Shown here: piece after piece, positions 1,640-21,467 of the stretch | Numbering within the stretch: the first letter of the stretch is position 1 | Layout: every line of letters starts with the position of its first letter | From: Naegleria gruberi | Lineage: Eukaryota | Assembly (NCBI GenBank): GCA_000004985.1 | Contig: GG738913.1 | DNA: 64,000 nucleotides | Direction: 5' to 3' (one strand) | Notes under the pieces: generated by a model | Databases searched by the model: none | Told to the model about the DNA's origin: nothing | The model's input: the letters and a program-made list of their open reading frames with translations, nothing else | Program-made: the position numbers and the translations under genes

Positions 1640-3028
1640 TTAAAGTGAGATTGTTACATCTGTTAATTGGTTAAATTTCAATGTATGTAATAATTTCTTA
1701 TTAAATTGAATTCTTTCTCCAGTGTAAATTGAAACATGCAATTCATCAACACATTCTTCTGTAATAGAATCCTCTAAATCATTATCATCAGTATTTGTGT
1801 AAAAAACTAAAATTCTTCCATCACTTGTACAAATAAATAAATTATTTCCATCTTTGGACCATTTCATTAATTTAAAATTTTCATTCTTTGCAACTTGTTT
1901 TGGTGTTAAAATAGTATGTGTTTCTACTGCTAAAAAGAATGTTGATACTTGATTTTTTGTTAATACTATCGTTTGATATTTTTTTTCATTAATATTAATT
2001 TGTAATACTTTAAAATATTAAATATTAAATAATAATTAATGCTTACTTTCATCAGATTTTAGTAATATGGTATTGGTATTTATGTGCGTCGAAAATAAAG
2101 CATCTGGATAACCTGAAAAGTAATCAACATTATGTGAATATCTTGCAATTTCTTCTTCAACAATTTCATTGCTTTCAACCTCTTCAATTTTCTCTTCATT
2201 TAACGTCTGTTTAGAATAATCATTATTATTATCTGTAAGAATATTTAATTCTTCATTATCTTCATTTTTAAATGTTTTCTTTTCATTTAGACCACTACTG
2301 ACCATTAGTAGACTATCATCTGGACTTATTTCCATCAGTTTAATACTATCATCATAAATTCTTTCATTATATCGTGCACATTCTTCACTACTGATACTAT
2401 ACATTGCTAATAATGAATCACTCCATAGTATTAAACATTTGCTATTGTACATTGAACCTCCATGTACGTAATAATTAATATAAACTTGTTCTTCTCTTAA
2501 TTTAAAATCTAAATTTTCATTCATAATTTTGTAATTTTGTTTAATATCTAATTGAATTTTTTTATAATTTCCATTTCTATTTCTAGTAAAAATATAAATA
2601 GTATGATCTGCAGATTGAATTCCAACTATATTTTGAATGTATAATATTTGTAATTGATTCATATCTTTATCATTGAAAATTAATTCATTCTCAGACCATG
2701 TTAATATTAATTTATAATATTTTTCATAATAACAACCTAAAATTCTATCGGAATGAACTTGTTTACAATAATTTCCATCTTTTTTAATGGTATTCAATTC
2801 TTCATGTGTCCAATATTGTGTTTGTACATTTTTACTATTTTTTCTATCATAAATTGTTGATGAGAGGTAACCATTATAATATCCGATTAATATTTGATCA
2901 TAATCATGTTGCTTTTGTTGACTTGTTGTTGTATCATTTAATTTCAATGATGATGAATATGATGAAGGGCTAAAAGAATGTTGAATTGTATAAAAACATG
3001 ATGGTTCCCATAATTGTTGTCTCGGCAT
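1640..3028 (-). CDS. beta-propeller (WD40-like) repeat protein, 2 exons: complement(join(1640..2007,2047..3028))
   Basis: ATG at 3028 (MPRQQLWEPS). The long ORF ends ...LLKSDE followed by gtaagc. A 39-nt intron (2008..2046, gtaagc...tttaaag) joins in frame to ORF 1640..1867 (WSKDGNNLFICTSDGRILVF, WD-like strands). Splice phase is consistent (phase 1). Confidence 0.45.
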
Positions 3029-3163
3029 TTTTTTTTGATCAAAGAACAAAGAACAGTGAAATTTCGTAAAGTTCAAAAGTTCATCCAAACAACAATCAAA
3101 AAATGTGTGGAGCGTAAGTTTGTGTTTTTTATCCACAACCATAACCACAACCATGGTGAATAA
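3029..3163. promoter_or_regulatory. short head-to-head intergenic region (bidirectional promoter) between the divergent genes starting at 3028 (-) and 3164 (+)
   Basis: 135 bp between two divergent ATGs. A-rich context precedes both starts. Confidence 0.4.
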
Positions 3164-9004: not shown

Positions 9005-9853
9005 ATGGATGACCAAAAATTGTCTGGAGCCATGAGTAATTGTTGGAGGAAAAAGATTGGCGAGAGGAAGAATTGCTTCTTTCATTGCAACAAATCATTG
9101 GTCAAAAGGCCTATCAAAGAAAGTGACTTTATGATTGTTGAAGAGAATTCAAGTGAATTTGATGAGAATTTATATGAGGTTGTGGCAGAATTTTTGGTGA
9201 TCAGAAAGAAGTTTATTTGCAAAACCAATCCCAATGCGATATTAACCATTGACCTTACCGAATTTCCCTTTGGAGACACTTTTGTCGTATTTGGCTTCCA
9301 AGTCAAGCTTTTAGAGGAAGATTTATTTGAAATGTTAAATCGAGATTCCCATATGTCGAGAGAATTAGATTTGAAACCATGCAGAAGTAAGATTATTGAA
9401 TACTTTTATAGACACAACAGACAAGTATATGAGAAACTTTCCAACAAGATTGTTCCAAATTTCCAATATGTTGCAATGAGTTCAACTTCTCTTATATCAG
9501 GTTTTCACTCTCAAAGCAAATATTCTCAATGGATTAATTCTTGTAAAGGAAAAATACCCAATATTACAATTCTTTCCAATAACATTGGGTGCTCACCAAG
9601 GAAAGTATTGACATTTTTGAAAGGAAGAATGGTTGGTAGAAGAGAGCTACTTTTAATTGAACAATTCGTCAAGTATTCTCCCGCCACAAAGAAGAGAATG
9701 ACGAAACAATTCGACAAGTCGACAACTAATATTTTGTTCAATAGTTATCTTGATTCCAAAAGAGAATTCAAAGAGGAATTTCTAGAATTAAGGAACATTA
9801 TGATAAGGTCTGGGGCTATTCAATTAGTCACTTGTATGGATTTCCATCATTGA
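9005..9853 (+). CDS. hypothetical protein
   Basis: 282-aa ATG-initiated ORF with no recognisable domain. The small upstream ORF 8803..8997 is of unclear significance. Confidence 0.4.
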   Translation: MDDQKLSGAMSNCWRKKIGERKNCFFHCNKSLVKRPIKESDFMIVEENSSEFDENLYEVVAEFLVIRKKFICKTNPNAILTIDLTEFPFGDTFVVFGFQVKLLEEDLFEMLNRDSHMSRELDLKPCRSKIIEYFYRHNRQVYEKLSNKIVPNFQYVAMSSTSLISGFHSQSKYSQWINSCKGKIPNITILSNNIGCSPRKVLTFLKGRMVGRRELLLIEQFVKYSPATKKRMTKQFDKSTTNILFNSYLDSKREFKEEFLELRNIMIRSGAIQLVTCMDFHH

Positions 9854-10281: not shown

Positions 10282-13200
10282 ATGGTCCTTTCATGTCAGT
10301 CATGCAAAACAACAATATTCACACATATTCTGTGTGGTTTATTGGTAGTTTACTTGGTGATGATGGTTGGAAGTGTGCAGGGTTTAGAAAATTTAAATAC
10401 GAAACTGGACGCAAGAAGCCGAATGAGCTCCGAAGGTCTTTCAAAGAGAGGATTGACAGGTATGGCACAAGCAATGGCAACGGATGTTTATATGAGGGCC
10501 TATGTGGATCCAATTAATGGTAATAATGATGTTTCGAATAATTGTAGTATGCAGAGTTCTCCCTGTGCTAGTCTAAAGATGGTTTTTAACATATTAGAAA
10601 GGATTCCGAATTATGTTGAAGATGGAAAAACAGCCTATCTAGCAATTTTCCTCATGAATAATATTGGACAAGCACAAATTAATGAAAATTGTGGAATTGT
10701 AGTTTCGAATGCTTTTCAAAAGAAGTTTCCAGAAATATTATTTTCCACAGATTCGACACTCTACTTGAGAAAGTTGAGTTGTGGCAGTAATCAAGGGTTT
10801 TTGAAAAGTAACAATGAAGTAATTCCATTCCTGATCCAATTTTTCTATATGGACCTTTCTAATATTGCAATTTCAGTACAAAACAACACTGAGGTTTGGA
10901 CTCTACTTTGTATCATTTCTGATTCATCATTCAAAAGTGAAAGAGTAACATTTGATACTTCTGAAATCTTTGGAATCAATTCAGTCGATTCGAATAATTT
11001 CATAATTGATGGAACAACTTTACGAAATGCAACTTTAAATTTTATTTGCATGGAAGCTAGTTTAACGATTAGATATAGTAACTTTATTGATTCGGCATTG
11101 ACATTGGATCCTCAACGATTATCCAGTACGAGAAGTATTACCATTTCGAGTTCACATTTTAAATATTCGAATCGTCCAAATTTGAAGAGTTTTCCAAGTT
11201 ATTTCATTACTAATAATAGATATCCATTTGAGAAGTTTATAATTAGGGACAGTACGTTTGAGGGAAGTGGAAGGGATTCGGATAATATTGGAGGAATTTC
11301 TATTCCTCATATTTATCCATTTATTTTGGATGTCGATGGATCAAACTTTAAGAAACTCTATTCGAAAGAAGGTGGAGCTCTTAATATTGCTGGTTATTCT
11401 ACAGTTATCATCAGTCGAACAGTATTTGATTCGAATAGAGCTTTATACATGGGTGGCTCTATTCGATTGAAAGGTTTAGCATCAAGAGCCAACTTTCTCC
11501 AATGCACCTTCCTAAACAATGAACAAATTGTACAAAATTATGCATCTTCCAGTAGTGAACTATCTTCCAATGCACTCTATGGAGGAGGTGCCATTTACTT
11601 TTCACAAGATTCGCCTTCTTCTATTCTATTTAACACTTGTGTCTTTAAGAATAATAGTGCAGGAGGTTTGGGTGGGGCTTTTTTGAGTTATTCTGGAAGA
11701 TCAGATGAGTTTATATTTGTGGAATCTGAAATTAATGGAAATAGGGCTGGATATTATGGTGGAGGAATTGCAGTTTTGGTCAACCCATCACTTTCCATTT
11801 ATGATGAATATGTTTCAATATTTGATGCCAAAAAAACAAAGATTTTGAGAAATGAAGCAACTATAGGAGGTGGATTATTCTTCAATACATTGGATACAAT
11901 TAGTTTGGATTCAGAATCGTCAATTTCCAACAATGTTGCCACCAAATATTCACCAGGAGTATTTTACAATAAGATTAATAAGTTGCAGAATTCTGCAGTG
12001 GTTGACAATAACTATATTAGAGATGGTTCATCAATTATTCAATCCCAAACTAATCAATATCCTTCAACAATATCTCTATTTCAGCAGGATCAAATTAGTG
12101 AACTTTCTAATGCTGAAATTATTCCTGGCTACACTCAAATATTTTATGCCAAGTTTAAGGATGCAAATGGAAACCTTGCAAATACTTCACTCCTATTCAA
12201 CATGCAAACCTATTGGAAACTCACACTAACTTCAATTGAGGGAACCATTATTATTGATGATTTGAATTTCAGTCCATCTGGAGACTTTCTCATGATTGAA
12301 TGCAAAACCTCCTTATTGAGAAGAGACATTAAGGGAGACAGATTTTCATTAAGTATGACAATGGACACAAAATCTGCTCTTCAGGCATTTTCTGACATGC
12401 AAGTTGTCAAATCTTTCAATATTTCTGTTGGATCATGCGGAGCCGCTGAATATATTGAAGTGAGAACAGCCAACGATGGAAATGACTATTATATTTGTTC
12501 AAACAGACCATCTATCATTGTTGGAGTTACGATTTCAGCATTGTTTGTGGGTTGCATTGTTTGTATTGTGTTGGTTATTTTCACTGTGAAATTCTGTTTC
12601 TTGTATAAGGACCAGAGAAGAAAGGCCAAGAAGGAAAAGGAATTGGAAATGAAATTAAGAGATTTTGAGTTGAATTATACTAAACTTGGCGACACTAATG
12701 CTTCTGCACTTTCTAGTCAATCTGCTTCTGGCATTGATTATTGGATGATTAAGGAAGAGGACATTGAAATTCAACAAAAGGTTGCAGAAGGCGCTCAGGG
12801 TAGTGTTTTTAAAGGAAAATGGTAAGTTTAGTTCTGTTTCTGCTTGTTTGTTAAATTTTGAAAAAGGAAAAACAAGACACAAGTTGCCATCAAAACATTC
12901 AAATTGACATTGGAGGAGGAGGCAGAGGCATCATTCCAACAAGAAGTAGGTTTACTGAGAGCTGTTCACCATGAAAATATTGTCACATTCTATGGAGTTG
13001 TGGTTTTGGAAACGACAAGATGTATGGTTACTGAATTTGTGCCAAACAACTCATTAGAATTTTGGATTACCAAAATGAAGAAGGGAGAAAAGAAGATTTC
13101 ATTCAAGGAAAAGTTGAAAATCTTGTTGGATATTGCAGCAGCCATGAGTTATTTGCATGAACTCAATCCTCCAATTATTCACAGGTAGGTTTATTGAAAT

Positions 13201-13828
13201 TTTGATTAGCAATATTTATTCGAAATTCAGAGATTTGAAACCTGGAAATGTATTACTTGACAATCAAATGAAAGCCAAAATTTGTGATTTGGGAGTTAGT
13301 AAAATTGTGGCCGACAACATGGTCGAGAAAACAAATCAAATTGGAACTTTCAATTTCATGGCCATCGAGACCTTTAATGGAACTGAGTATAATGAGAAGT
13401 GTGATGTTTTCAGTTATGCAATCATTTTGTGGCAATTGATTTTTGAGGAGAATGCAATTTATTCCAATGAATTATTGAAAAACAAACGAGTGAGCTATTT
13501 CATGACTGATCAGGATAGACAAGTTTATGAAAAGTTGACACCTCAAAATTTCAATAATTATTATATTGCCAAGTTGATTAGTGAAGGATTGAGATATCCA
13601 CTGCCTTCAATATCTAAAAGTTTGGAAGAGGAAAAGAAACTCTTTGTATGGGTTGAGGAATATATGAACCAGGAAGGAATTGATACTAGTAGACTCACTA
13701 TTCGAATCTTACCAATTTATTTCTCATTAATTGAGTCATGTTGGAGAGCAGATTACAATCAAAGACCAAGTTTTTCATTCATTGTAAAGAAACTCCAAGA
13801 AATGATTGAGTTGGCAGATAAAATTTAA
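10282..13828 (+). CDS. receptor-like transmembrane Ser/Thr (TKL-type) protein kinase with Pmp-like parallel beta-helix ectodomain; join(10282..12822,12877..13184,13231..13828)
   Basis: N-terminal signal/anchor (ILCGLLVVYLVMMVGSVQG). Ectodomain with GGAIYF / GGAF / GGGIAV / FxxN repeats. TM IIVGVTISALFVGCIVCIVLVIF. Kinase motifs GSVFKGKW | TQVAIK ... IIHR | DLKPGNVLLD ... ICDLG are restored only by removing two introns (gtaagttt..acaag 12823..12876; gtaggttt..ttcag 13185..13230). Phases are consistent. Confidence 0.8.
12823..12876 (+). other. spliceosomal intron (54 nt, GTAAGT...AG) between kinase subdomains I and II
   Basis: GKW | intron | TQVAIK. The only in-phase acceptor is the one at 12876. 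Confidence 0.75.
13185..13230 (+). other. spliceosomal intron (46 nt, GTAGGT...CAG) splitting the HRD catalytic motif
   Basis: IIHR (ag|gtaggt) ... cag|a gat ttg aaa cct gga aat restores HRDLKPGN. Confidence 0.8.
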
Positions 13829-13880: not shown

Positions 13881-14771
13881 ATGTGCAAACGATCAAGACA
13901 ATTATTCGATGAAGGTAGTGATGATAAAAAATCAAATGTTGAACCATTATTATTAGAATTGGAACATTTTTCGGATCAAAATTCCACCATCTTTATTGAT
14001 GATCATGTAGATGAAATTTTATCGTTTTTTGATGATTTTAAATTTATTGTTCTGAATTGTGCATTAGTTTCTAAACAGTGGTTGAGAGTCATATCGGAAA
14101 GAGTAAGATTTTCGCTCACTTGCAAAAGTAGCCAGAATTTGCAAGGTGAATTTTTGCAAAATATTCAAAATCTTAAAGTGAAAGAACACAAGGAAATAGT
14201 ATTCGATTGTCAAGTATTTAGTTTGATGAAATCATTGACTAGTCTTGATATTTCTTTTAATAACATTAGTTATCGATCTCATTATTTTAAAGAACTGAGA
14301 CAATTACCTAAATTGACTAATTTAAATATTAGTGGCAACAAGATTGAGGCTATTGGAGCCATGCAGATTAGTAAAATGAGGCAATTAACTTGCCTTAGTG
14401 TTTCTAATAATAATATTGGAAATGAAGGATTCAAATTCATTTGTGAAATGAAGCAATTAACCTATCTCGATGTTGGTAGAAATGATATTAATAGTAAAGG
14501 ACTCAATCATATCACTAACCTTGATAAGTTAAAAGATCTTCGTATTTATTACAATAGTGTTGGAGATGGAGCTAAATACATAAGTGAAATGAAACAATTG
14601 ACTAATCTTAATGTAAATACAGCTTGCATTAATGAAAAAGGTGCCAAGTTCATTAGTGAGCTGCCACTGGTCACTAATCTCAATATCAGTTTCAATGAAA
14701 TAGGCAATCAAGGACTCGAACACATTAGTAGAATGAAAACCGTATTAAATTGTATAAATAATTACAATTAA
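13881..14771 (+). CDS. F-box-like / leucine-rich repeat (RNI-type LRR) protein, paralog A
   Basis: ATG at 13881 (MCKRSRQ). F-box-like FIVLNCALVSKQWLRVISERV. About 24-residue LRRs (LTNLNISGNKIEAIGAMQISKMRQLTCLSVSNNNIGNEG...). Paralogous to 26658..27515 and 41848..43056. Confidence 0.65.
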   Translation: MCKRSRQLFDEGSDDKKSNVEPLLLELEHFSDQNSTIFIDDHVDEILSFFDDFKFIVLNCALVSKQWLRVISERVRFSLTCKSSQNLQGEFLQNIQNLKVKEHKEIVFDCQVFSLMKSLTSLDISFNNISYRSHYFKELRQLPKLTNLNISGNKIEAIGAMQISKMRQLTCLSVSNNNIGNEGFKFICEMKQLTYLDVGRNDINSKGLNHITNLDKLKDLRIYYNSVGDGAKYISEMKQLTNLNVNTACINEKGAKFISELPLVTNLNISFNEIGNQGLEHISRMKTVLNCINNYN

Positions 14772-16077: not shown

Positions 16078-19000
16078 ATGACAGAATCACCACATGCATC
16101 ATTGAGTTCATTGGCTCGTCCAGTAACCTTCAATCTTGCTACTGCAACAGCAAACACTTCACACAGTGGCACTAATTTGAGGCCAGCCCTCAAGATTTAT
16201 TCTAATTATGAAACGACAGCATCTACTCATTCAGGAGATGATGAAGATGCAGTCTCTGCTCAACCAACATCTGTGGAGGAGGGTTCAACTGCTGATAAGA
16301 TCTCCTCTAATCAATTCACTGAGGAATACATTGTTCCATCACTTAAATCGATAAGAACACATCCATGGGATGATTTACCACATGTTTCGAGTTTATTAAT
16401 CTTTGGTATCATTCAACCAATACAATTTATTGCACTTTCTTTCATTCCCATTGATCAGTGGGGTTCCATCTCACGATATATCATAGATTATGGCATCAAG
16501 AGCATGTATACATTCGGGTTACACTTACTGCCCTACGAAGGATCAGCAGCCTTTCTCTTCATCTTTCTGCTTTTGGAAATGTTATGTGGAATAGCTCTTT
16601 ATTTGTCCAAAGAATCTATAGGCAAAGATGCCAAGCTTTGGAAATTAATGCCAAAGATATATACTTACATGACCTTTCTGTGCACTGTATTGTACCTCCC
16701 AATAACGAGTATTTATTCAACCTTCTGGTCATGTGATTATGTCCACGGAAAGAAGGAAGTTCAATCTGATATTACATCAACAATAACGACCAATTATTAT
16801 TTGAAAGTTTACCCAGATGTGGAGTGTTGGGATACTCCTAACCTTGTGTTTTCAATCTTTTCCATGATTGGACTGATTTTTCACATTGTGGCAATTCCAG
16901 TTTTGTTCACATTGACGGTGGCCAGTCCTTCCATTATTTTAGTTCCAACAAAGATAAGGACTGCATGGTGGCACAGAGTCATCAAGAAGGCATTCTTCAA
17001 TACACTGCGTCCTATTGTTCCTGTGGCTGTGTCCATAATGAGTGGATTTTATATTGTGTTTCAACAGATGGTACCCTCGTACACCGAGTTTTCATTCCTC
17101 TATCCAAGTGTAATGATAGCAATAGCCATAGCATCAGCTGGAATAATAATATACACGCTTCCTTATCATCGCCCTAAAGAAAACAGCTTTCAGTTCGCTG
17201 TAAACTTGGCAAAACTAGGGCCAAGTTCAGTAATGCTCATTTGTTCACTTCAAAATACAATTTCGGATGTCAATCACATCAGTGGAACGCTTTACCAATG
17301 GGAAGCTGGTTTAATTTATCTGGGAACTTCTCTAGCTTCTTGCCTTACTATTTTCCTGTTTGCCTTTTTTGGATGTCAAGCTTATCAGAAAATTTACATT
17401 GAAAAATTGGCAAAACAATTGAATGAGAAGATTTCGGAAAATTCTGGTGCCTTTTCGAATGATTTATTGGAAGATATTGGTGAAACTAATATGGGAAGAG
17501 TTGCACAATTCGCCTTAAATGTCGATGAGAAGGCAATTTCCAAAGTTGACATTGAACTGTTGGTAATTTCTAAAAAGATTATTACCGAAATGAAACGAAA
17601 CAAATTGACACCAACGGATACTTTCTTTGCAAGCTCACTTTCCTGCTTGGTTATTAAATTATTCAAGGAAAAGGATCCAAGATATGGAATCATGTATTCT
17701 TTACAATTACTTTCAGGTCAATTGAAAAGAAGAATCAATATTTGGGATCGTTTAGTTATTTCTTTACAAAAACATGAGAAAGATGTTTTGAAGAAACGTG
17801 AAGAAATCAAGCCAGGTTCAAGAAAAGCCGAAGAGATTGATAAGAAAATATCACAACTCTACAAGAAGCAAACTCAGCTTTCTAATTTGCATAGAAATTA
17901 TTGGAAACTTGTTTTGAATGAGAATAGCGATGATTCGAATGCCATTCTTCAAGTTTCTGATGAATTGTACATTTTGCAAAATGAAACTAGAAGCATGTTT
18001 GAAGAACTCTTCTCCCAACACTCAACCAGTGTCACAGTTTTAAGAAACTATTCACGTTTCGCTGAAAAATTCCTATTCCAACCTGAACTTGCAGAAGATT
18101 TACAAGCTGCTGTTTTGGAAGAGGAAGAAGAAAACAATAGAAAGAAGCAAGCATTCAAGGGTGGAAGAAGAGGAAGTAGAGCAGTACCTGGTTTCCAACA
18201 AGAAACCATTGATTTGAGTAAATTTGACGATTTGGACGAACTGCCAGAGGAAGCCGAATGTTTAGAAGAAGAGAATAGAAAACAAAAGGAAGGAAATAAG
18301 AATTTGATCAACAAGCATCCAGATTTCACATGGTTATTGATTGTTATTTTGATTATTCCATGCTATGTCATTTTGGGAATCACCGGAGGATTAATAGCAG
18401 AGATTATCCAAGGAACTTCCACAAAAGGAAGTTCTACCAAAGGTTTTGAATCCAAAGTTTGGATGTATTATGAATTATGTGATGCTGCAAATGTTCCTTT
18501 CTATGTCCTTGTAGACTATAGAGCTTTACAAAAGTTGAAACTCTTCTCTGGAAACACTGCATACATTACCAAATTAGAAAAAGATCACAAGGAGAGATTT
18601 TCCTCGTATAGTCAAAGAATGAAGAGTATGATGTTGGATTATTCATCAAGTACTGACAATTTAATCAGTGCTGTGGTCAAGGGCTATCAGCAAACCTACT
18701 ATGAAGTTTACATTCCAAAAGCAGTTTCTAATGCCTCATCATTTCAAGAAGGAACCAAGAAGAAAGTGACCTTATCCGAAATCTACTCCATGATGGCTGT
18801 TCAATTGGAAAATATCGTTCAACAAGATGATAGTATGAGTTTGAAAACAATTGAAAACTTTCCATTCATGTTCTTTTGGGAAAATCGAGAAATTATGCCA
18901 ACAATAATTTCCAATTTTTGTTCTACAATTATTGAAGATCACAGAAATTTGTTAATTGACCAATTGAGAGATTTCATTTTGGGTATGTCAATAGCCATGG

Positions 19001-21467
19001 CGAGCTTTATGATGGTAGCTTTTGGTATCTTTGGTGTCATTATTTACAAATTTAGAGATCGTCAACGTTTAATCAATTTATTCAAGAAATTGCCAAAGGA
19101 TGAAGTTGGACGAATCTATCAAGAATTGAAGGCTGGATGCTCCAACGATAAGCACTCACTTTCCAATGATAAGAAACAATTTATTCTCACTCGATTCTTA
19201 AGAAATCCAGTTTATGCCGTTCCATCTCTTCTCATGCTTTCATTTGCTATTGGCGGAATTGCCTTCTCTGTCTTTATTTACGATTCCACTAATAACATGA
19301 ATCTACAGTATAGTTCCATGTTGAAATTGAGAAATTCTGTTGATATCCAAGTTGATTACCATAAGGGTTTGTTCAATTTGGTCGAGTTGATTAGTGGAGA
19401 TAGTTCACTACCAACAAATAGTTCACTTGTTTATAATGAAGTGACGAATAGTATGAGAGGATTGGTAGATAACTTTTTAGTTTTCACAAGAGGAGATAGT
19501 CAGAAAGGTTACAACCCAATCAGAAGTTTCAGCACAGATATTGAAATACTCATGATTTCGAATACTTGTTCCAATAATTTTACTTCTATCAATAGAACTA
19601 TTGGATCAAATACTACTTCAACAACATTGCCAGCTTCATCTAAAACATGGAATTCTAACTTTACACTCTCTCAAAATTTGGATTTCTTCTCTTGTCTTTC
19701 GATTGAAGACCTAATGTCATATATTTTATCTGGAATGGAACAATTCAAGGAAGAATCTTTCAAGAATATTCGTACTTCAGGCTATTTTATTGAAACCTTC
19801 TTCAAGGATCATGTTTCCTTGAGTTTATCCTTCAGAGCAAAGGTCGACAAGGTTTTACTCGTTCTAGTATCTGTCATTGATAACATTGTGTCAATTACTC
19901 CAAGTTTGACAGCTTGTTTAATGATTGTTGTCTTGTGTATGCTCATTAATTACATTGTATTTACTTCATGGAAGGTCTACACATCTGAAATGACCCAACT
20001 TCGTCACATGTTTCATTTCATTTCTTGGGAAACAATCGAAAGCAACGAAATCTTCCTAAACTATATAATGAACTATGAATTAGTCAGAAAAAAGAAAGGT
20101 TCAAGAATTCATCCTGGAGATGAAGGTGCAGATAGTGATAGTACCACCATGCTTAAGAAAGTTTTGGATAGTTGTGTTGATGGAGCTGTTATTTTCAATC
20201 AGGAAGGAATTGTGGAAAATATTAATCAAGTTGCCTTGTCAATGTTTGGAATTAGATCTCAATCTGATGTTGTAGGAACTGAATTTTATGGACTTTTCCA
20301 ATCTAAAGATGTCATTGCCAAGACAATTAGTGACATTTCCAAGTCAGCTAATTCTCATGGTGAAATTCTTGAAGTTGAAGCTAAAAGATCTCAAAATATG
20401 CTCAATTCCAAGACATTCCCTGTAAGACTGAATTTATGTGTTGCATTTTCTGGTGGAAAGAGCAAAAAGGTCACATTTGCTGGTATTTTAAGTGATGTAA
20501 CATCAGAGAAGAAATCTCTTGAATTGCTAAATGTGGAAAAGAAAAAGTCAGAAGACCTGTTGAAGAGTATCTTCCCAGAAGCTGTTGCTGCTCGTTTAAA
20601 GAAAGGAGATACCTTCATTGCTGAGAAGTTTGATGATATTACTTGTTTCTTCTCAGATATGGTTGGTTTTACCAAAATGAGTAGCACTTTGCAACCAACT
20701 GAACTAGTAGAAATGTTGAACGATTTAGTGAATGGTTTTGATGAAGTGTGTACAAAGTATAATTTGGAAAAGATTAAGACTATTGGTGATGCTTATTTTG
20801 CAGCTGGGTAGGTTTTCTTCTTTTTGGAATATTTAAATTATTTATTTAACAATTAAATAGTGGATTGCATGGTCAACAGAGTGATCACCCTGAAAGAGTT
20901 TTAAGATTTTCAATTGATGTTTTTGGACTATTGCACAGATATAATATTACCAGAAATAGAAGTGTTGACAATTCTATTAATTTGCGAATTGGTATAAATA
21001 CTGGAAGTGTTGTCGGTGGTGTTATTGGTAAAAAGAAATTTGCCTACGTGAGTTTTCAATTTTTTTCAATGTTTATTTACAATAATGTTAATTATTTTAA
21101 TTTAATATTAAACAAATAGGATTTATGGGGAGATGCAGTCAATACAGCCTCAAGAATGGAATCAACTTCATTCCCAGGTCGTATTCAAGTTTCCAGAACA
21201 ACTTACGAAAGAATTCACGATCTAGTTCTTTACGATTTGGATCAAAGATTAAATCCTAATGGAAAGGGAATTATGGTGGAATTTGAGGAGAAACGAGTTG
21301 AAGTGAAAGGAAAGGGATTGATGCAAACCTATGTTCTTTTGGAAAAGTTCCATGAAAGAGCATTGTTTGAACATTTGGCAATGCATATTGATCATTCTCA
21401 AGACTCAGCATTGGTTCCATCTGTTGCACTTTCTAACCAATCATTATCAGATAAACATTCAGATTAG
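16078..21467 (+). CDS. polytopic membrane PAS-domain class III adenylate/guanylate cyclase; join(16078..20807,20861..21047,21120..21467)
   Basis: About 1754 aa. Three clusters of TM helices, a coiled-coil-like middle, a PAS-like segment (VLDSCVDGAVIFNQEGIVENINQVALSMFGIRS...) and a cyclase domain (FSDMVGFTKMS ... KIKTIGDAYFAAG | GLHGQQSDHPERVL ... RIGINTGSVVGGVIGKKKFAY | DLWGDAVNTASRMEST). The canonical DxWGDxVNxASRMES motif is recovered only after removing a 72-nt intron. Confidence 0.85.
20808..20860 (+). other. spliceosomal intron (53 nt, GTAGGT...TAG)
   Basis: Phase-2 junction in the cyclase domain. It removes the in-frame TAG. Confidence 0.7.
21048..21119 (+). other. spliceosomal intron (72 nt, GTGAGT...TAG)
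   Basis: Joins ...KKKFAY to DLWGDAVNTASRMES. Confidence 0.8.

What the first reader, a model, noticed from the sequence alone, without database searches (positions are those of the whole stretch)
10282..13828. Receptor Ser/Thr kinase whose ectodomain is built from chlamydial Pmp-like (GGAI / FxxN) parallel beta-helix repeats
The 847-codon first exon encodes a signal/anchor and an ectodomain. The ectodomain is full of GGAIYF, GGAFLSY, GGGIAVL and FxxN motifs, characteristic of bacterial polymorphic-membrane-protein / pectate-lyase-like beta-helices. A single TM and a TKL-type kinase follow. Its conserved motifs (GxGxxG...VAIK, HRDLKPGN, DLG) are only reconstituted across two very short introns (54 and 46 nt), the second splitting the HRD motif. 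A beta-helix adhesin fused to a kinase is an unusual receptor design and may reflect an ancient bacterial-derived module.
Basis: partly seen in the sequence, partly recalled or inferred. Interest (0 to 1): 0.7.

Follow-up and report, generated by a model that had tools for sequence, protein, structure and literature searches.

The report
Naegleria receptor kinase with beta-helix ectodomain
This is an intact, apparently unannotated Naegleria gruberi gene for a single-pass membrane protein that joins an outside beta-helix built from Pmp-type (GGAI/FxxN) repeats to an inside TKL-type Ser/Thr kinase, a domain combination I could not find described elsewhere, though both parts are individually ordinary.

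Summary
The gene is real and mostly as described. The window is Naegleria gruberi. The gene has three exons (10282-12821, 12867-13184, 13231-13828) and encodes 1151 aa: signal peptide, ~710-aa ectodomain, one TM helix (aa 745-775), and a kinase with all catalytic motifs.

One correction: intron 1 is 45 nt (canonical GT-AG), not 54. Intron 2 is 46 nt and splits the Arg codon of HRD, as stated.

Direct Pfam and TIGRFAM hits to the Pmp repeat are below threshold (E 0.37 and 0.45). Indirect evidence supports the call:
- An exhaustive HMMER search gave 95 relatives, and 58 of the 61 scanned carry Chlam_PMP.
- A repeat HMM built from those relatives scores 52.7 bits, against at most 8.6 for shuffles.

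Only about a third of the ectodomain carries clear repeats; the rest is unassigned. The nearest solved kinases are TKL members (CTR1, TAK1, Roco4, ZAK).

None of the 95 ectodomain relatives has a kinase. The protein is absent from a 15-billion-protein collection, and no full-length orthologue was found. Bacterial origin of the module and an adhesin role remain untested. Verdict: a new variant of a known kind (protist receptor-like kinase), of moderate interest.

The parts
10282..12821 (+). Exon 1 (aa 1-846 plus 2 nt): signal peptide, whole ectodomain, TM helix, juxtamembrane segment and the kinase glycine loop
   Evidence: ORF 10282-12825; spliced translation
10282..10383 (+). Predicted signal peptide or anchor, aa 1-34 (hydrophobic core IFTHILCGLLVVYLVMMVG, then SVQG|LE)
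   Evidence: Kyte-Doolittle peak of 2.32 at aa 8-36. The cleavage site is inferred, not predicted with a dedicated tool.
10384..10968 (+). N-terminal ectodomain, aa 35-229, fold unassigned
   Evidence: No homologues (coverage 0), no Pfam hit, AF2 pLDDT below 50
10969..11946 (+). Predicted right-handed parallel beta-helix, aa ~230-555
11293..11955 (+). Pmp-type repeat rungs, aa 338-558. GGxx motifs start at 338, 364, 391, 435, 464, 493 and 529. Upstream partners are FDSN382, FLNN410, FKNN455, INGN484 and ILRN521.
   Evidence: Motif statistics, paired-motif scan, unit-HMM domains, conserved G/N/A columns in register with 39 PMP-protein segments
11956..12513 (+). Membrane-proximal ectodomain, aa 559-744, unassigned (degenerate rungs, then an all-beta region with Cys674, Cys719 and Cys739)
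   Evidence: Few or no homologues. AF2 is not confident.
12514..12606 (+). Transmembrane helix, aa 745-775, followed by a basic stop-transfer stretch KDQRRKAKKEK
   Evidence: Kyte-Doolittle peak of 3.01, the only internal hydrophobic segment
12822..12866 (+). Intron 1, 45 nt, GTAAGT...AAAAAG, phase 2, between the glycine loop (GKW) and KNKTQVAIK
12867..13184 (+). Exon 2 (VAIK to HR of the HRD motif)
13185..13230 (+). Intron 2, 46 nt, GTAGGT...TTCAG, phase 2, inside the Arg codon of HRD
13231..13828 (+). Exon 3 (DLKPGN to the C-terminus; stop TAA at 13826-13828)
12763..13789 (+). Protein kinase domain, aa 828-1139 (genomic span includes both introns), TKL-like, with ~50-60 extra residues in the C-lobe
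   Evidence: Pfam PF07714 1.3e-50 and PF00069 1.4e-44; PDB neighbours; alignment gaps against P0110

Best explanation
A Naegleria gruberi gene encodes a type-I, single-pass receptor-like Ser/Thr kinase. After a cleavable signal peptide, the extracellular part contains a right-handed parallel beta-helix of roughly 12 rungs. About seven of these (aa 338-558) are Pmp-type rungs in which an [F/I/L]xxN turn packs against a GG[A/G/S][I/L/F] turn. N- and C-terminal extracellular regions of unknown fold flank the helix. One TM helix links it to a cytoplasmic TKL-group kinase that keeps every catalytic residue (AxGxxG, VAIK Lys, alpha-C Glu, HRDLKxxN, DLG), so the kinase is probably active.

Inferred mechanism: the beta-helix face and its loops (one 17-residue loop at aa 414-430 and a longer rung at 493-528) bind an extracellular ligand. 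By analogy with other beta-helix surface proteins this is most likely a glycan or a cell-surface or prey-surface polymer. Ligand-driven clustering would activate the kinase by trans-phosphorylation of its activation loop.

Shown here: gene structure, domain order, fold class and kinase class. Inferred only: topology, ligand, activation and expression.
For: - Organism: ORF 16078-20811 is identical to N. gruberi EFC37886.1.
- One ORF carries the signal peptide, ectodomain, TM helix and kinase glycine loop.
- Two canonical short GT-AG introns restore a continuous kinase HMM match. A neighbouring gene has a similar 53-nt GTAGGT intron.
- There are only two hydrophobic segments, with positive charges after the second.
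- Ectodomain search: 95 hits at E<=1e-3 among 1.84 billion representatives. Of the 61 scanned, 58 carry Pfam Chlam_PMP and 29 carry Beta_helix.
- Conserved G, N and A columns align in register over five consecutive repeats.
- The repeat HMM scores 52.7 bits, against at most 8.6 in 300 shuffles.
- A profile of the region hits the beta-helix protein Rhombotarget A (3.4e-8) and a Tetrahymena membrane protein (4.9e-30) in the PDB.
- Kinase neighbours are CTR1, TAK1, Roco4, ZAK and TNNI3K.
Against: - There is no transcript evidence, so both splice junctions are predictions.
- The direct Pfam and TIGRFAM Pmp-repeat hits are sub-threshold.
- Foldseek against the PDB is not significant (best E 0.018), because half of the model is unstructured.
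- AF2 is reported to over-predict beta-solenoids for repeat sequences (bioRxiv 10.1101/2024.10.30.621056, title and abstract seen).
- About half of the ectodomain (aa 35-229 and 560-744) has no assignable fold.
- The kinase has non-consensus features of unknown effect: APE is AIE, the first glycine-loop Gly is Ala, and the C-lobe carries a ~50-60-aa insertion.
- Nothing identifies a ligand.
Confidence: 0.75

Rival explanations
1. The ectodomain beta-helix is a carbohydrate-active enzyme (lyase, hydrolase or epimerase) tethered to the membrane, not a passive binding module. The kinase would then report on or regulate polysaccharide processing.
Confidence: 0.12
2. The GGxx/xxN periodicity is a generic or convergent beta-solenoid in a Ser/Asn/Gly-rich sequence rather than true homology to the PF02415 repeat family. 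On this view 'Pmp-like' is only a motif resemblance.
For: Pfam Chlam_PMP scores 11.6 bits against a cut-off of 20.6, and TIGR01376 scores 10.5 against 15. FxxN alone is not enriched. The best E-value to any PMP protein is only 1e-10. The ectodomain is compositionally biased (S 13%, N 9%, I 9%).
Against: 95 independent hits survive a 1.84-billion-sequence E-value correction, and 95% of those scanned are PF02415 proteins. Matches run up to ~250 residues and keep register over five or more rungs. Composition-preserving shuffles reach at most 8.6 bits, against 52.7 for the real sequence.
Confidence: 0.1
3. The locus is not expressed as one receptor. It is a decaying or chimeric gene, which would explain why it is missing from the reference annotation.
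For: Neither the ectodomain nor the kinase retrieves a self-hit in the collection that does hold the neighbouring N. gruberi protein. No orthologue was found. The only specific relative is a 160-aa metagenomic fragment at 38% identity.
Against: The 1151 codons contain no frameshift or internal stop once two canonical introns are removed. All catalytic residues are intact. The kinase glycine loop lies in the same ORF as the TM helix and ectodomain. The neighbouring annotated model EFC37886.1 is itself truncated at an unrecognised short intron, so annotation failure is a sufficient explanation.
Confidence: 0.05

Closest known systems
Trichomonad Pmp-like surface proteins (TvPmp; Handrich et al. 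2019, PMC6701047)
   Same: Eukaryotic type-I membrane proteins with an N-terminal run of FxxN/GGA[ILV] repeats. They lack the chlamydial Pmp middle and autotransporter domains and carry a single C-terminal TM helix.
   Different: The trichomonad proteins end in a short cytoplasmic tail with endocytic motifs. This protein carries a ~375-aa cytoplasmic region with a complete TKL kinase. It also has fewer and more degenerate repeats.
Chlamydial polymorphic membrane proteins (Pmp; PF02415; PMC10715098, PMC11166332)
   Same: Paired [F/I/L/V]xxN and GG[A/G][I/L/V] motifs about 27-30 residues apart build the rungs of a beta-helix, with occasional long loops between the two motifs. Non-canonical variants (GGGI, IxxN, LxxN) occur in both.
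   Different: Chlamydial Pmps are bacterial type V autotransporters with a Pmp middle domain and a beta-barrel. They have no TM helix and no kinase. This protein does not reach the Pfam or TIGRFAM thresholds.
Protist and plant receptor-like Ser/Thr kinases, such as Entamoeba histolytica transmembrane kinases (PATMK, PMC2211552) and plant RLKs (own knowledge for family properties)
   Same: Signal peptide, variable ectodomain, one TM helix and a cytoplasmic TKL-related kinase. The presumed logic is ligand-induced activation.
   Different: Entamoeba TMK ectodomains are Cys-rich (CXXC) repeats. Plant RLK ectodomains are LRR, LysM, lectin, malectin and similar. Here the ectodomain is a Pmp-type beta-helix with only 11 Cys. 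The kinase is closer to MAP3K-like TKLs (CTR1 4e-38, TAK1 1e-31) than to RLK/Pelle kinases (SOBIR1 5e-28, BAK1 ~1e-25).
Raf/MLK-like TKL kinases (CTR1, TAK1, ZAK, Roco4)
   Same: They are the best sequence matches to the kinase domain. They share the HRDLKxxN Ser/Thr-type catalytic loop and the G.W....VAIK spacing.
   Different: Those kinases are cytosolic, with no ectodomain or TM helix. This kinase has DLG in place of DFG, AIE in place of APE, and a ~50-60-aa C-lobe insertion.

Membership tests
Pmp-type repeat family (Pfam PF02415 Chlam_PMP / TIGR01376 POMP_repeat) | Score above the curated threshold of the family HMM | tested here: not met
   PF02415: 11.6 bits against a cut-off of 20.6, E 0.37, one stretch at aa 453-468. 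TIGR01376: 10.5 bits against 15, E 0.45.
Pmp-type repeat family (Pfam PF02415 Chlam_PMP / TIGR01376 POMP_repeat) | Repeated, paired FxxN and GGA(I/L/V) motifs (or accepted variants) at a rung spacing of ~27 residues or more | tested here: met
   Seven GGx[ILFV] motifs at 27-44-aa spacing, against 0.29 expected. Five [FILV]xxN...GGxx pairs. Five repeat-HMM domains with i-E from 9e-12 to 8.5e-4. The definition is taken from PMC10715098.
Pmp-type repeat family (Pfam PF02415 Chlam_PMP / TIGR01376 POMP_repeat) | Significant sequence similarity to bona fide family members | tested here: met
   95 hits at E<=1e-3 in an exhaustive phmmer search. 58 of the 61 scanned contain PF02415, best E 2.9e-35.
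Chlamydial Pmp autotransporters (sensu stricto) | Pmp middle domain plus a C-terminal autotransporter beta-barrel | tested here: not met
   No such Pfam hits. The C-terminal part is a TM helix plus a kinase.
Right-handed parallel beta-helix (pectin-lyase-like fold) | Three-sheet right-handed solenoid of stacked rungs | tested here: met
Eukaryotic protein kinase superfamily, TKL group | Kinase domain HMM match with catalytic residues present (Lys of VAIK, alpha-C Glu, HRD Asp, Asn, Asp of DFG/DLG) | tested here: met
   PF07714 1.3e-50 and PF00069 1.4e-44. Motif positions. Alignment.
Eukaryotic protein kinase superfamily, TKL group | Closest relatives are TKL kinases; formal group assignment by Kinomer/KinBase HMMs or phylogeny | tested here: inconclusive
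   The nearest solved kinases are TKL members: CTR1, TAK1, Roco4, ZAK and TNNI3K. One EGFR entry and other Tyr kinases follow closely. No group-specific HMM library or tree was available.
Receptor-like kinase (type-I single-pass) | N-terminal signal peptide, one TM helix, kinase on the cytoplasmic side | tested here: met
   Hydropathy shows exactly two hydrophobic segments, with a basic cluster after the second. No dedicated signal-peptide or topology predictor and no experiment were available.
Plant RLK/Pelle (IRAK) family | Kinase domain groups phylogenetically with RLK/Pelle | not tested
   The only relevant data are PDB E-values: SOBIR1, BAK1, CERK1 and SymRK (5e-28 to 1e-24) rank below CTR1 and TAK1. 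No tree was built.
Entamoeba transmembrane kinases (TMK) | Cys-rich CXXC-repeat ectodomain | tested here: not met
   The ectodomain has only 11 Cys, with no CXXC repeats.

The most novel reading that the evidence does not exclude
This is the first recognised receptor kinase whose ligand-binding ectodomain is a Pmp-type parallel beta-helix. It would be a lineage-restricted, fast-evolving Naegleria sensor that escaped annotation, and it would show that free-living heteroloboseans built receptor Ser/Thr kinases independently from a surface-adhesin scaffold shared with bacteria and trichomonads. If its ligand is a bacterial or prey-surface glycan, it would be a protist pattern-recognition receptor kinase analogous to plant PRRs.
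Probability: 0.3. Interest if true: 0.6.

Novelty: new variant of a known kind. Interest (0 to 1): 0.45.

Why it matters
Receptor kinases outside animals and plants are poorly charted, and how free-living amoeboflagellates sense prey, surfaces or each other is largely unknown. A beta-helix of the Pmp type is otherwise known from bacterial autotransporter adhesins and trichomonad surface proteins. Finding one wired directly to a kinase would add a new ectodomain class to the receptor-kinase repertoire and give a concrete candidate for glycan or surface sensing in Naegleria.

There is also a practical point. The gene appears to be missing from the reference protein set, and a neighbouring annotated model is truncated at a short intron. 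N. gruberi gene models with 45-55-nt introns therefore deserve re-annotation before any kinome or receptor census is trusted.

Tried and rejected
1. The word-indexed homology search with the ectodomain found nothing. With the full-length protein and with the kinase alone it returned only generic TKL or RLK kinases, no self-hit and no Naegleria paralogue. It was uninformative on architecture.
2. An exact look-up of both spliced models found neither in the collection.
3. phmmer of the ectodomain against PDB sequences gave no hits.
4. tblastn of the ectodomain against the window found no paralogue.
5. A metagenome scan for close relatives of aa 227-745 gave no confirmed locus. An alignment-based scan was impossible because no block was conserved enough.
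6. The afdb50 fold library was unavailable. Foldseek against the PDB was not significant.
7. A single-sequence AF2 run on the membrane-proximal region (aa 580-745) gave pLDDT 31, so nothing could be assigned.
8. Literature searches for Naegleria plus Pmp, Chlam_PMP plus kinase, a beta-helix receptor kinase, and the Naegleria kinome found no description of this architecture. The N. gruberi genome paper is not held.
9. It lacks GT, and the alternative in-frame GT-AG introns (72, 84 and 96 nt) delete the glycine loop.
10. The dual-kinase protein P0110 looked like a close relative by E-value, but it simply matches twice.
Full report
**Source and context.** The window is AT-rich (29-38% GC) and gene-dense, with long ORFs. 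ORF 16078-20811 is identical to Naegleria gruberi EFC37886.1 / XP_002670630.1, so the window is N. gruberi nuclear DNA. Neighbouring ORFs encode ordinary eukaryotic domains: RCC1, ZZ, TPR, LRR, PAS plus cyclase, and Schlafen/BTB.

**Gene structure.** An 847-codon ORF runs from 10282 to 12825. Its last ~20 codons encode the start of a kinase domain (QKVAEGAQGSVFKGKW).

- The next kinase element, VAIK, lies 58 nt downstream in the same frame, with three in-frame stops in between.
- I enumerated every in-frame GT...AG intron that avoids stops and keeps VAIK. There are four candidates, of 45, 72, 84 and 96 nt. Only the 45-nt one (12822-12866, GTAAGT...AAAAAG) keeps the glycine loop.
It also gives a lower kinase HMM score (156.4 vs 163.7 bits for PF07714; 144.7 vs 150.4 for PF00069).
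- A neighbouring gene in the window has a comparable 53-nt GTAGGT...TAG intron, so such introns are normal here.
- The spliced CDS is 3456 nt and encodes 1151 aa, with a TAA stop at 13826-13828.
- Pfam aligns PK_Tyr_Ser-Thr positions 1-232 to aa 828-1059 in one stretch that crosses both junctions. This is the main support for the splice model in the absence of transcripts.

**Topology.** Only two windows exceed a Kyte-Doolittle mean of 1.6.

- The first is aa 8-36, an N-terminal signal-like segment ending SVQG|LE.
- The second is aa 742-777, with core IIVGVTISALFVGCIVCIVLVIFTV, followed by KDQRRKAKKEK.
- This fits a type-I protein with ~710 extracellular residues and a ~375-residue cytoplasmic part. 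The topology is inferred, not measured.

**Kinase.**

- Conserved elements are all present: A-x-G-x-x-G-x-V (836-843), VAIK (853), the alpha-C Glu in FQQEVG, HRDLKPGN (952), DLG (972), AIE in place of APE (997), DVFSYA (1011) and RPSF (1131).
- The HRDLKxxN loop is the Ser/Thr type.
- The closest solved kinases are CTR1 (4e-38), TAK1 (1e-31), Roco4, MLT/ZAK and TNNI3K, all TKL members. One EGFR entry (1.2e-32) also ranks among these; other Tyr kinases and plant RLKs follow at 1e-28 to 1e-24.
- The C-lobe is ~50-60 residues longer than the Pfam model, and the alignment against P0110 shows gaps there.
- 'TKL-type, probably active' is therefore supported. A formal group classifier was not available.

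**Ectodomain: direct tests.**

- Pfam Chlam_PMP gives one stretch at 11.6 bits (cut-off 20.6, E 0.37).
- TIGR01376 gives 10.5 bits (cut-off 15, E 0.45).
- No Beta_helix hit was found, and there was no PDB sequence hit.

**Ectodomain: indirect tests.**

- GGx[ILFV] occurs seven times (aa 364, 391, 435, 464, 493, and an overlapping GGGG run scored at both 529 and 530), plus GGIS at 338. Shuffles expect 0.29.
- FxxN alone is not enriched (6 vs 4.1). Five [FILV]xxN motifs sit 4-21 residues upstream of a GGxx motif: FDSN...GGSI, FLNN...GGAI, FKNN...GGAF, INGN...GGGI and ILRN...GGGL. This is the pairing described for Pmp rungs, including the accepted non-canonical variants (PMC10715098).
- An exhaustive phmmer search of aa 60-745 against 1.84 billion cluster representatives gave 95 hits at E<=1e-3 (best 2e-13 and 1e-10). 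All align to aa ~255-640, mostly 320-590.
- Of the 61 hits scanned, 58 contain Pfam Chlam_PMP (best 2.9e-35) and 29 contain Beta_helix.
- In a MAFFT alignment with 39 matched segments, the near-invariant G, N and A columns coincide with this protein's residues over five successive repeats.
- A single-rung HMM built from 400 repeat units of the hits scores the real ectodomain at 52.7 bits. The maximum over 300 composition-preserving shuffles is 8.6 bits. It finds rungs at 364-392, 391-413, 435-466, 464-495 and 529-554. Weak partial matches to the strand part reach back to aa ~196.
- AlphaFold2 with that alignment is confident (pLDDT mostly 70-98) for aa ~230-555 and below 50 elsewhere.
- Foldseek returns the same fold class but not significantly.
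- A profile of the alignment hits a 3634-aa Tetrahymena membrane protein (7w5z_U2, 4.9e-30) and Rhombotarget A (3.4e-8) among PDB sequences.
- One caveat is the report that AF2 can over-predict solenoids for repeats. Here the prediction agrees with independent sequence homology.

**Conclusion on the ectodomain.** aa ~230-560 is a divergent Pmp-type beta-helix. The regions aa 35-229 and 560-744 remain unassigned.

**Distribution and origin.**

- No search returned the protein itself or an orthologue, although the collection holds the neighbouring N. gruberi protein. The gene therefore appears to be missing from the reference annotation and has no relative at 50% identity or above.
- The only specific relative is a 160-aa product from a 604-bp metagenome contig, 38% identical over aa 258-382.
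- None of the 95 relatives contains a kinase, and neither do the flanks of four relatives' loci.
- One of the closer relatives (P0005) lies on a contig next to an OSCA/RSN1-type gene broken into ORFs as if by introns, which points to a eukaryote. Other hits carry bacterial sorting domains (Por_Secre_tail, dockerin).
- PF02415 is documented as widespread beyond Chlamydia, including ~200 non-bacterial UniProt proteins (PMC11166332). Trichomonads have type-I Pmp-like proteins with a TM helix and a short tail (PMC6701047).
- 'Bacterial-derived' thus remains an open conjecture. The authors of the trichomonad study note that phylogeny on these repeats is impeded by low identity.

**Mechanism (inferred).** The domain order matches a receptor-like kinase. 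The extracellular beta-helix would bind a ligand through one face and its loops. The single TM helix would transmit clustering, and the TKL kinase would autophosphorylate and signal. A glycan or cell-surface polymer is the most plausible ligand class, given what beta-helix surface proteins bind. An enzymatic ectodomain is a minority alternative. None of this is tested.

**Novelty.** Receptor-like Ser/Thr kinases with lineage-specific ectodomains are known in plants, Entamoeba and other protists, and Pmp-type beta-helices are known on eukaryotic surfaces. I did not find the combination in the literature searched or among sequence relatives. I could not query InterPro architectures or other Naegleria genomes. 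I rate it a new variant of a known kind, of moderate interest.

Noticed in passing
window 16078-20811 (+) and 20808-21050: The annotated N. gruberi protein EFC37886.1 (1577 aa) equals the bare ORF and stops at a TAG that lies inside a 53-nt GTAGGT...TAG intron (20808-20860). Its Guanylate_cyc match covers only model positions 3-64 of 183, at the extreme C-terminus. The next exon reads GGLHGQQSDHPERV...RIGINTGSVVGGVIGKKKFAY, which is the rest of a class III cyclase, followed by another GTGAGT. The database model therefore looks truncated (PAS plus cyclase protein).
   Followed up: partly
window 10282-13828: The receptor-kinase gene itself seems absent from the public protein collection, although a neighbouring gene from the same window is present. 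No self-hit appeared for the ectodomain, the full-length protein or the kinase. It is probably an unannotated gene in the reference N. gruberi annotation.
   Followed up: partly
window 13881-14771 (+): The gene immediately downstream (ATG 53 nt after the kinase stop codon) encodes an LRR_6/RNI-like leucine-rich-repeat protein (LRR_6 2.3e-19). The ORF ends at 14771, but the gene may continue across an intron.
   Followed up: partly
window 9005-9853 (+): The upstream 282-aa ORF has no Pfam hit. It shows a weak tblastn similarity (E 0.016, 26% over 151 aa) to the C-lobe of the kinase studied here. This could be chance or a kinase-like remnant.
   Followed up: no
protein aa ~1020-1125 (window ~13430-13750): The kinase C-lobe carries about 50-60 extra residues between subdomains IX and XI relative to Pfam and to P0110 (several gaps in the alignment). 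The insertion is of unknown function.
   Followed up: no
PDB 7w5z chain U2 (not in window): A profile of the Pmp-type region hits a 3634-aa Tetrahymena 'transmembrane protein, putative' in a solved cryo-EM entry at 4.9e-30 (residues ~2999-3154). An experimentally resolved eukaryotic Pmp-type beta-helix may therefore already exist and could serve as a template.
   Followed up: no
L004 1663-7224: On a 1.58-Mb metagenome contig, two adjacent Pmp-repeat ORFs (385 and 690 aa) lie ~2 kb downstream of a small ORF with a weak Pkinase hit on the same strand. The order is kinase before Pmp, the opposite of this gene. tblastn with this gene's kinase domain found nothing there.
   Followed up: partly
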